The notes under the pieces: model-generated
Told to the model about the DNA's origin: nothing
The model's database searches: none
Seen by the model: the letters and a program-made list of their open reading frames with translations, nothing else
Assembly: GCF_003334255.1 (NCBI RefSeq)
Contig: NZ_QOWU01000270.1
Source: Escherichia coli
GTDB taxonomy: Bacteria; Pseudomonadota; Gammaproteobacteria; Enterobacterales; Enterobacteriaceae
Length of the DNA stretch: 304 nt
Direction: 5' to 3' (one strand)
Position numbers and translations under genes: made by a program
In this document: piece after piece, positions 1 through 33 of the stretch
Layout: every line of letters starts with the position of its first letter
How positions within the stretch are numbered: position 1 is the stretch's first letter

Positions 1-33
1 AAGGCGGAGTTCGACCGCCTCTGGAAAAAATGA
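1..33 (+). CDS. 3' end of IS3-family orfA (transposase N-terminal DNA-binding subunit, OrfA/InsA-like); 5' part lies outside the window
   Basis: Codon phase starting at position 1 reads AAG GCG GAG TTC GAC CGC CTC TGG AAA AAA TGA = KAEFDRLWKK*, with the stop at 31-33. It ends immediately at the slippery A run and overlaps the orfB start, as expected for an IS3-family orfA. The C-terminal peptide fits my recollection of IS629 OrfA. Confidence 0.8.
   Translation, partial: KAEFDRLWKK

What the first reader, a model, noticed from the sequence alone, without database searches (positions are those of the whole stretch)
2..20. Perfect 6-bp stem-loop containing a GGAG motif immediately upstream of the slippery run
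Positions 2-7 (aggcgg) are the exact reverse complement of 15-20 (ccgcct), with a 7-nt loop (agttcga, 8-14). A Shine-Dalgarno-like GGAG sits at 6-9, straddling stem and loop. In IS911, an upstream SD-like element and a downstream stem-loop stimulate -1 frameshifting. Here the GGAG is 15 nt upstream of the A run, further than an optimal stimulatory spacing, and sequestering it in a stem could modulate either frameshifting or orfB reinitiation. It may also be a coincidence of GC-rich coding sequence (it encodes KAEFDRL of OrfA).
Basis: seen in the sequence. Interest (0 to 1): 0.25.

Follow-up and report, generated by a model that had tools for sequence, protein, structure and literature searches.

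The report
Known frameshift-stimulating hairpin of an insertion sequence

Summary
Positions 2-7 and 15-20 are perfect complements with a 7-nt loop and fold at -9.8 kcal/mol.

The interpretation has the polarity wrong. The window is the orfA/orfB junction of an IS3411/IS629/IS1203-type IS3-family element.
- Rfam RF01497 (ALIL pseudoknot) matches window 1-104 at 97 bits (118 bits full length; threshold 50). Its consensus structure contains this hairpin as stem-loop 1.
- RefSeq already annotates the feature.
- The loop (9-14) pairs with the internal loop (70-75) of a second stem-loop (65-104).

In 92 distinct relatives, aligned without reference to structure:
- The 17 hairpin bases are 95-97% conserved, third codon positions included. 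The overlap sequence just after them is only 65% conserved.
- The stem is paired in 95% of cells and the loop-loop helix in 98%. Both show compensatory changes.
- A U_UUY slip motif sits 5 nt upstream of the stem, 4-7 nt before window position 1, and its UUU is invariant.
- NCBI's OrfAB proteins are joined at that motif (...AYF|CEGGVRPPLEKMM...).
- The A-run occurs in only 3 of the 92 relatives.

The hairpin is therefore a downstream stimulator. It is not an upstream Shine-Dalgarno (SD) or modulator element. It is already known, and interest is low.

The parts
1..104 (+). Part of the ALIL pseudoknot frameshift element that lies in the window. The full element begins 13 nt before window position 1 and includes the U_UUU slip site.
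   Evidence: Rfam RF01497 matches window 1-104 at 97 bits and is cut at the 5' end. The full-length match at L001 1188-1304 scores 118 bits against a gathering score of 50. RefSeq annotates 'AL1L pseudoknot' at the same coordinates.
2..7 (+). 5' arm of stem-loop 1 (SL1). The conserved core is GGCGG at 3-7. A2 pairs with U20 only in this lineage.
   Evidence: In 92 relatives the core pairs are 84-100% paired, with G-C to A-U and C-G to G-C swaps.
8..14 (+). Apical loop of SL1, AGUUCGA. Bases 9-14 form the kissing helix with 70-75.
   Evidence: Mean conservation is 0.97. Duplex with 70-75 is -6.4 kcal/mol. The helix is 98% paired in 92 relatives, with compensatory changes at pairs 9-75 and 10-74.
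15..20 (+). 3' arm of SL1. The conserved core is CCGCC at 15-19.
25..30 (+). It is lineage-specific and possibly a secondary, weaker -1 site of the A_AA.A type.
   Evidence: An A-run of 5 or more is present in only 3 of 92 distinct relatives: E. coli, K. variicola and K. oxytoca. A_AA.A is the least efficient of the six active tetramers in E. coli (PMC4066793).
30..35 (+). orfA stop codon UGA (31-33) overlapping the orfB AUG (30-32) as ATGA, followed by a second AUG (33-35).
   Evidence: The T-G-A columns are 98%, 89% and 79% conserved.
65..104 (+). Stem-loop 2 (SL2) of the ALIL pseudoknot. The lower stem is 65-69/100-104 and the upper stems are 76-77/98-99 and 79-85/90-96.
   Evidence: Rfam consensus structure. 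Its helices are 78-95% paired, with many compensatory changes.
70..75 (+). Internal loop of SL2, UCGGAC, the pairing partner of the SL1 apical loop.
   Evidence: Mean conservation is 0.95.

Best explanation
The hairpin at 2-20 is stem-loop 1 (SL1) of the apical-loop/internal-loop (ALIL) pseudoknot of an IS3411/IS629/IS1203-type IS3-family insertion sequence.

Proposed mechanism:
1. A ribosome translating orfA reaches the U_UUU tetramer. This is UAU UUU in frame 0, at L001 1194-1197, 4-7 nt before window position 1.
2. With UUU in the A site, the base of SL1 (G3) sits about 12 nt downstream of the first P-site base, at the entrance of the mRNA channel.
3. SL1 is reinforced because its loop (9-14) pairs with the internal loop (70-75) of SL2 (65-104), which begins 45 nt further on. 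The resulting pseudoknot resists unwinding.
4. tRNA-Phe re-pairs one base back, from UUU or UUC to UUU, and translation continues in the -1 frame through the hairpin sequence (read as ...F|CEGGVRPPLEKMM...) into orfB. The product is the OrfAB transposase.

Shown here: the identity of the element, the structure and its conservation and covariation, the conserved slip motif and its spacing, the open -1 frame, and the annotated junction.

Inferred or taken from the literature: that the structure actually stimulates slippage. This is reported for IS3411 by Mazauric et al. 2008, as summarised in PMC5009743.
For: Identity:
- The window is 99-99.7% identical to thousands of E. coli copies annotated 'IS3 family transposase | AL1L pseudoknot'.
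- Plasmid copies are named IS629 or IS1203, and the protein matches NCBIfam IS3.

Family match:
- RF01497 scores 97 bits on the window and 118 bits full length, and its consensus structure includes this hairpin.
- All 12 plasmid relatives with 46-83% OrfB identity also score at or above the gathering threshold.

Conservation in 92 distinct junctions, aligned on protein anchors only:
- SL1 arms and loop are 0.95-0.97 conserved at all codon positions of both frames. The adjacent, equally dual-coding stretch at 20-33 is 0.65.

Pairing:
- SL1 core is 95.2% paired. When the 3' partners are slid by 1-2 columns in either direction the figure falls to 24-38%. No shuffle out of 500 reaches the observed percentage paired or covariation score. 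Two pairs carry double changes.
- One of those double changes is in Gordonia, GGGGG/CCCCC, which folds at -15.7 kcal/mol.
- The kissing helix is 98.0% paired, against 3-40% for slid partners. Seven cells show compensatory changes, G-C to A-U at pair 9-75 and C-G to U-A at pair 10-74, the latter including this window.
- G-U pairs occur, which fits RNA of the + strand.

Slip site:
- UUU is invariant in 92 of 92 sequences, followed by U or C, with a 5-nt spacer to the stem.
- U_UU.C and U_UU.U are the second and third most shift-prone tetramers in E. coli and predominate among IS3-family tetramer sites (PMC4066793).
- The -1 frame is open across the whole overlap in all 92.
- NCBI OrfAB proteins, including the one from this very record and clusters seen on 258 and 379 contigs, read ...RQASAYF|CEGGVRPPLEKMMPLL. 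That is a junction at UUUU, not at the A-run.

Homologue: IS6110 has the homologous hairpin directly 3' of its slip site UUUUAAAG (PMC5896891; fold).

Against: - I could not retrieve the primary experimental paper (Mazauric et al. 2008, JBC 283:20421). The functional claim therefore rests on how later papers summarise it.
- The stem is so conserved that covariation within SL1 itself rests on only 3 sequences with double changes. One of them, L215, does not adopt the hairpin in its minimum-free-energy fold.
- The outer pair 3-19 is unpaired in 13 of 92 sequences.
- Some actinobacterial relatives (L219, L220, L224) have a poor SL1 stem.
- NCBI's junction is a pipeline annotation, not a protein sequence determined by experiment.
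- The slip site lies outside the given window.
Confidence: 0.88

Rival explanations
1. The first reader's idea, as an additional function limited to this lineage. In enterobacterial copies the A6 run followed by UGA is a second -1 slip site, and the hairpin region acts on it from upstream. There are two possible routes: the GGAG at 6-9 pairs with the anti-Shine-Dalgarno sequence once the stem has been melted, which would stimulate slippage; or the hairpin refolds behind the ribosome, which would attenuate it.
For: - The A6 run is kept in E. coli, K. variicola and K. oxytoca copies with 77-100% OrfB identity, even though the flanking bases and the stop codon change.
- A_AA.A is a weak but active tetramer and is well represented in IS3-family elements (PMC4066793).
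[quoted passage not shown] From memory only, it reports both TTTTG and an A-run motif as -1 signals.
- Upstream hairpins can attenuate -1 frameshifting, depending on their stability and proximity to the slip site (PMC3639245).
- From my own knowledge of the dnaX and IS911 work, the 14-15 nt spacing of the GGAG is at the outer edge of the range that stimulates -1 shifts.
Against: - The hairpin and its GGAG are conserved in 89 of 92 relatives that have no A-run, so this role cannot explain why they exist.
- NCBI joins the frames at UUUU, not at the A-run.
- When AAA AAA occupies the P and A sites, the 3' arm (15-19) lies 6-10 nt upstream of the P site. That is inside the ribosome, so the stem cannot be folded and cannot sequester GGAG at that moment (inference from known ribosome footprints).
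- The attenuation data come from eukaryotic systems.
- I could not read the Chen & Hu paper.
Confidence: 0.12
2. The inverted repeat is a by-product of protein-coding constraint on a GC-rich, dual-coding overlap (the OrfA C-terminus and the OrfAB linker) and has no function as RNA.
For: - The region is read in two frames.
- A 6-bp hairpin somewhere in a 304-nt window is not rare, at about 0.6 per shuffle.
Against: - The third codon positions of both frames are invariant inside the hairpin, whereas the equally dual-coding stretch at 20-33 varies freely.
- There are compensatory changes in the stem, and also with a partner 55 nt away in a different coding context.
- The match to a curated covariance model scores 97-118 bits.
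Confidence: 0.02
3. The palindrome acts at the DNA level, for example as a protein-binding or recombination site inside the IS.
For: In most relatives the centre of the hairpin reads GAGCTC, a perfect DNA palindrome.
Against: - G-U wobble pairs are tolerated in both the stem and the kissing helix. On the opposite strand or in duplex DNA these would be mismatches.
- The partner sequence at 70-75 covaries with the loop as a long-range RNA helix would.
- In this window the centre reads GAGTTC, which is not a palindrome.
Confidence: 0.01

Closest known systems
ALIL (apical loop-internal loop) pseudoknot of IS3411 and related IS3-family elements (Rfam RF01497; Mazauric et al. 2008)
   Same: It matches in every respect tested:
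- Location in the orfA/orfB overlap.
- Slip motif 5 nt upstream of SL1.
- A 5-6 bp SL1 with a 7-nt loop.
- SL2 with an internal loop 45 nt downstream.
- A 6-bp loop/internal-loop helix.
- A covariance-model score about twice the gathering threshold.
The window is, to within about 1%, the element type in which this structure was described.
   Different: Nothing substantive.
- Relative to the family consensus the kissing helix reads GUUCGA/UCGGAC instead of GCUCGA/UCGAGC. That is one compensated pair and one G-U wobble.
- The stem has one extra A-U pair.
- This lineage carries an A6 run between SL1 and the orfA stop codon.
IS6110 frameshift region (Mycobacterium tuberculosis complex)
   Same: It has a homologous hairpin with the same AGCUCGA loop core directly 3' of the slip site, and a downstream UCGAG partner. 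Disrupting the structure altered transposase output (PMC5896891).
   Different: - The slip motif is the heptamer U_UUA_AAG rather than the tetramer U_UUU.
- The stem is GGCCG/CGGCC with an 8-nt loop, a different pairing register.
IS911 frameshift signal (A_AAA_AAG with an upstream SD-like GGAG and a downstream three-way junction)
   Same: Both are IS3-family orfA/orfB -1 frameshift sites.
   Different: - Here the GGAG is a structural part of the 3' stimulator of a different, upstream slip site.
- It lies 14-15 nt from the A-run.
- It is conserved independently of the A-run.
- The stimulator is a kissing pseudoknot, not a three-way junction.
IS3 (E. coli K-12) H-type pseudoknot with an A_AAG slip site
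   Same: It is a tetramer slip site in the homologous ...YFAK... codons of orfA, stimulated by a downstream pseudoknot, with an ATGA stop/start overlap. This comparison rests on my own knowledge plus PMC4066793.
   Different: The pseudoknot topology and the slip tetramer are different, and the two sequences are not alignable at the nucleotide level.

Membership tests
ALIL pseudoknot (Rfam RF01497) | Lies in the orfA/orfB overlap of an IS3-family element, with orfB in the -1 frame. | tested here: met
   Frame 1 ends KAEFDRLWKK* and the -1 frame continues into a DDE transposase. The protein matches NCBIfam IS3 at 371 bits. RefSeq annotates it as 'IS3 family transposase, programmed frameshift'.
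ALIL pseudoknot (Rfam RF01497) | Covariance-model score at or above the curated gathering threshold of 50 bits. | tested here: met
   97 bits for window 1-104, cut at the 5' end. 118.1 bits for the full element.
ALIL pseudoknot (Rfam RF01497) | A -1 slip motif a few nucleotides 5' of stem-loop 1. | tested here: met
   U_UUU lies at L001 1194-1197, outside the window, with 4-5 nt to the stem. UUU is invariant and followed by U or C in all 92 relatives. The -1 frame is open across the overlap.
ALIL pseudoknot (Rfam RF01497) | Stem-loop 1 with an apical loop that is free to pair. | tested here: met
   6-bp stem with a 7-nt loop, -9.8 kcal/mol. The core stem is 95% paired in relatives.
ALIL pseudoknot (Rfam RF01497) | Stem-loop 2 with an internal loop, 44-104 nt 3' of stem-loop 1 (range given in PMC5009743). 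| tested here: met
   SL2 spans 65-104 and begins 45 nt after the end of SL1. Its internal loop is 70-75.
ALIL pseudoknot (Rfam RF01497) | Base pairing between the SL1 apical loop and the SL2 internal loop, maintained in evolution. | tested here: met
   GUUCGA (9-14) pairs with UCGGAC (70-75): 6 bp including one G-U, -6.4 kcal/mol. The helix is 98% paired with compensatory changes in 7 cells, and no shuffle out of 500 reaches the observed value.
ALIL pseudoknot (Rfam RF01497) | The structure raises -1 frameshifting in vivo. | not testable with these tools
   Reported for IS3411 by Mazauric et al. 2008, as summarised in PMC5009743. I could not retrieve the primary paper.
5' SD-like stimulator of -1 frameshifting (dnaX / IS911 type) | An SD-like sequence at a stimulatory distance upstream of the slip site, roughly 10-14 nt by my own knowledge of the dnaX work. 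| tested here: inconclusive
   GGAG at 6-9 is 14 nt from the G_AAA_AAA heptamer (24-30) and 15 nt from the first A. This is at or beyond the edge of the range.
5' SD-like stimulator of -1 frameshifting (dnaX / IS911 type) | The SD-like motif is conserved together with the slip site it serves. | tested here: not met
   The GGAG columns are 95-99% conserved, whereas an A-run of 5 or more is present in only 3 of 92 relatives.
Upstream attenuator hairpin of -1 frameshifting (SARS-CoV type) | A stable hairpin close to the 5' side of the slip site that lowers -1 frameshifting (PMC3639245). | not testable with these tools
   The position is compatible: the hairpin ends 4-5 nt before the A-run. There are no functional data. 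The effect is documented in eukaryotic systems, and the conservation pattern argues against this being the reason the hairpin exists.

The most novel reading that the evidence does not exclude
In the enterobacterial IS629/IS3411 lineage one RNA element serves two slip sites in succession.
- Folded, SL1 kissing SL2 stimulates the -1 shift at U_UUU, upstream of the hairpin.
- For ribosomes that stay in frame and melt the hairpin, the exposed GGAG, or the hairpin refolding behind the ribosome, then tunes a second and weaker -1 shift at the lineage-specific A6 run just before the UGA stop.
The two OrfAB isoforms would have the same length but differ in an 11-residue linker: CEGGVRPPLEK versus AKAEFDRLWKK.
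Probability: 0.1. Interest if true: 0.4.

Novelty: already known. Interest (0 to 1): 0.1.

Why it matters
The practical value lies in interpretation.
- A reader who sees only this window will take the A-run for the frameshift site and the hairpin for an upstream element. The family-wide evidence shows the opposite polarity.
- The junction of the transposase, and therefore its predicted linker sequence, depends on getting this right.
- IS629/IS3411/IS1203 are abundant in pathogenic E. coli and Shigella. The ALIL pseudoknot sets how much transposase they make.

The comparative data add a modest independent confirmation of the published structure: 92 junctions with compensatory changes in both the stem and the kissing helix. 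They also show that the A-run is a late addition specific to one lineage.

Tried and rejected
- **Primary papers.** I could not retrieve Mazauric 2008 or Chen & Hu 2006 by DOI or PubMed id. Text searches for the TTTTG/AAAAT signals found nothing useful. Statements about a second IS629 frameshift product therefore rest on the paper's title plus my memory.
- **First protein search.** The search with the fused OrfAB returned only near-identical copies. That was useful for the junction but not for diversity.
- **Loop-only DNA pattern.** Scanning viral contigs with AGCTCGA-N45-75-GTCGAGCC, designed to leave the stem unconstrained, returned about 120 stretches. Only 2 were real IS junctions and the rest were chance matches.
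- **Alternative partner for the loop.** In this window 8-13 is a perfect complement of 86-91 in the apical part of SL2. Across relatives this pairing is no better than shuffled, 55.8% against 55.6%, so I rejected it as coincidence.
- **Sixth stem pair A2-U20.** It is not conserved.
- **Most distant OrfB relatives.** L214, L221, L222 and L223 (43-46% identity) belong to other IS3 subgroups that lack the motif. L221, for example, has A_AAA_AAG. I left them out.
- **Supplement of Sharma et al. 2014.** It does not list the IS3411 motif.

Full report
**Observation**

AGGCGG (2-7) pairs with CCGCCT (15-20) around the loop AGTTCGA (8-14). GGAG is at 6-9, the A-run is at 25-30, and frame 1 reads KAEFDRLWKK followed by a stop codon. 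As RNA it folds into this hairpin at -9.8 kcal/mol, 88% of the ensemble, z = -2.3.

A perfect 6-bp hairpin is not rare in a window of this size, at about 0.6 per dinucleotide shuffle. At a fixed 23-nt slot it occurs in about 1% of shuffles. The window alone could not settle whether the hairpin is meaningful.

**What the window is**

It is 99-99.7% identical to thousands of E. coli chromosomal and plasmid copies annotated 'IS3 family transposase', with a feature 'AL1L pseudoknot' under the match. In the record I fetched (L001; window position 1 = L001 1201) that feature spans L001 1188-1304, and the coding sequence is marked 'programmed frameshift'. Plasmid copies are named IS629 or IS1203, and the protein is an IS3-family transposase by NCBIfam.

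**The hairpin is part of a curated RNA family**

Rfam RF01497 (ALIL pseudoknot) matches window 1-104 at 97 bits, cut off at the 5' end. It matches the complete element at 118 bits; the gathering score is 50.

The model's consensus structure has three parts:
- a 5-bp hairpin at window 3-7/15-19 with a 7-nt loop;
- 45 unpaired positions;
- a long stem-loop at 65-104 with a 6-nt internal loop at 70-75.

The hairpin loop (GUUCGA, 9-14) is complementary to that internal loop (UCGGAC, 70-75). The two form 6 bp including one G-U, at -6.4 kcal/mol. This is the apical-loop/internal-loop pairing that gives the family its name.

A review describes it for IS3411 and at least 27 other insertion sequences. 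[quoted passage not shown] 2008).

The Rfam model starts 13 nt before the window with the strongly conserved sequence UAUUUUGC. In frame 0 this reads UAU UUU GCG, a U_UUU tetramer at L001 1194-1197.

NCBI's OrfAB proteins for this element read ...RQASAYF|CEGGVRPPLEKMMPLLDKL.... These include the protein from this very record and clusters seen on 258 and 379 contigs. The frames are joined at that UUUU. A junction at the A-run would give ...AEFDRLWKK|MMPLL.

The hairpin therefore lies 4-5 nt downstream of the annotated slip site. With UUU in the A site, the first stem base is about 12 nt from the first P-site base. By established knowledge of -1 frameshift geometry, that puts it at the entrance of the mRNA channel.

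IS6110 shows the same arrangement. Its slip site UUUUAAAG is followed directly by the homologous hairpin GGCCG-AGCUCGAC-CGGCC, and altering that structure changed transposase output (PMC5896891; fold).

**Comparative test**

I collected junctions through protein similarity only:
- 80 loci from one genome per species, with OrfB 55-66% identical;
- 12 plasmid relatives at 46-83% identity;
- contigs encoding distant OrfB representatives.

All 12 plasmid relatives score at or above the ALIL gathering threshold. I cut each junction out using protein anchors, the Phe codon of OrfA and Gly13 of OrfB. I then aligned the 92 distinct sequences with MAFFT and no structural input.

Conservation by segment:

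| Segment (window coordinates) | Mean frequency of the commonest base |
|---|---|
| SL1 5' arm (3-7) | 0.96 |
| SL1 loop (8-14) | 0.97 |
| SL1 3' arm (15-19) | 0.95 |
| Stretch after the hairpin up to the orfA stop (20-33) | 0.65 |
| SL2 internal loop (70-75) | 0.95 |

- The hairpin values include the third codon positions of both reading frames. The stretch at 20-33 is equally dual-coding, which makes it a fair internal control.
- The UUU of the slip site is invariant in 92 of 92 sequences and is followed by U or C.
- U_UU.C and U_UU.U are the second and third most shift-prone tetramers in E. coli and predominate among IS3-family tetramer sites (PMC4066793).
- The -1 frame is open across the whole overlap in all 92 sequences.

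Pair counts:
- **SL1 core:** 95.2% of cells are paired. With the 3' partners slid by 1-2 columns in either direction the figure is 24-38%. No shuffle out of 500 reaches the observed percentage paired or covariation score. Two pairs carry double changes, C-G to G-C and G-C to A-U.
- **Kissing helix:** 98.0% of cells are paired, against 3-40% for slid partners. Seven cells carry compensatory changes. Pair 9-75 changes from G-C to A-U, and pair 10-74 from C-G to U-A. The second change occurs in this window's lineage and independently in Rhodococcus, whose helix is GUUCGA/UCGAAC.
- **Whole structure (SL1, kissing helix and SL2):** 88.9% of cells are paired, 13 pairs show double changes, and no shuffle out of 500 reaches any of the measures.

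G-U pairs are tolerated, which points to RNA of the + strand rather than a DNA palindrome.

Caveats:
- SL1 is so conserved that its own covariation rests on three sequences. One of them (L215) does not adopt the hairpin in its minimum-free-energy fold.
- Pair 3-19 is unpaired in 13 of 92 sequences.
- The sixth pair, A2-U20, is specific to this lineage.

**The A-run and the GGAG**

An A-run of 5 or more between the hairpin and the orfA stop codon occurs in only 3 of 92 distinct relatives: E. coli, K. variicola and K. oxytoca. The GGAG is conserved everywhere, because G6 and G7 close the stem and G9 begins the kissing helix. Its conservation therefore cannot be due to a role at the A-run.

When AAA AAA occupies the P and A sites, the 3' arm (15-19) lies 6-10 nt upstream of the P site. 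That is inside the ribosome, so the stem cannot be folded at that moment and cannot sequester the GGAG. This is an inference from known ribosome footprints.

A secondary, lineage-specific slip at the A-run is still possible:
- A_AA.A is a weak but active tetramer.
- The run persists across 77-100% protein identity while the flanking bases and the stop codon change.
[quoted passage not shown] I could not read it, and my recollection that it names TTTTG and an A-run motif is memory only.

If such a site is used, published work on upstream hairpins predicts attenuation rather than stimulation (PMC3639245). The GGAG spacing of 14-15 nt is at the outer limit for SD-like stimulation, from my own knowledge of the dnaX work.

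**Rejected alternatives**
- The loop's perfect complementarity to 86-91 in this window is not conserved: 55.8% paired against 55.6% in shuffles.
- Coding constraint alone cannot explain invariant third positions next to a freely varying dual-coding stretch, nor covariation with a partner 55 nt away.
- A scan of viral contigs with a loop-only pattern gave almost only chance matches.

**Verdict**

The hairpin is real and functional in all likelihood. It is the already described and already annotated stem-loop 1 of the ALIL pseudoknot of IS3411/IS629-type elements. It acts as a downstream stimulator of -1 frameshifting at a U_UUU site that the window happens to cut off. It is not new, and interest is low.

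The only open and mildly interesting question is whether the lineage-specific A-run is a second slip site that the melted or refolding hairpin influences.

Noticed in passing
window 25-35: The A6 run directly precedes an ATGA stop/start overlap (orfA UGA at 31-33, orfB AUG at 30-32) and a second AUG at 33-35. The A-run is present in only 3 of 92 distinct relatives, all enterobacterial. Klebsiella copies keep the A6 run but change the stop codon to UAA.
   Followed up: partly
window 8-13 and 86-91: The SL1 loop AGUUCG is a perfect complement of CGAACU in the apical part of SL2, a second possible partner. Across 92 relatives this pairing is no better than shuffled (55.8%), so it is probably coincidence.
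   Followed up: yes
L219 152-259 and L220 394-490: Actinobacterial-type relatives have a weak SL1 stem (GAAGG...CCGNC). Their complementarity between the SL1 region and the SL2 internal-loop region is extended to 9 nt (GAGCUCGAC / GUCGAGCUC). Their Rfam ALIL scores fall just below the gathering threshold, at 46-49 bits. This may be a variant architecture.
   Followed up: no
L002-L081, column equivalent to window 7-12: In most relatives the closing G plus the loop reads GAGCUC, which is self-complementary and could allow loop-loop pairing between two RNA molecules. In the window it reads GAGUUC.
   Followed up: no
L001 1-854 and 2162-2704: This IS copy interrupts an McrC-family gene. Both halves are annotated as partial pseudogenes, and they sit next to a frameshifted AAA ATPase gene. 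An mcrBC-like restriction locus appears to have been inactivated by the insertion.
   Followed up: no
P0001 (436 aa; E. coli OrfAB variant): This is an OrfAB protein with an internal 32-residue tandem duplication, SRKAVAAGDRVNRQFVAERPDQLWVADFTYVS repeated twice, just before the catalytic core.
   Followed up: no
window 30-44 / 126-140 and 200-206 / 222-228: Two further inverted repeats lie inside orfB: a 15-nt, 80% complementary pair 81 nt apart that starts at the orfB AUG, and a perfect 7-nt pair (CGTATAC/GTATACG) with a 15-nt spacer. I did not examine their conservation.
   Followed up: no
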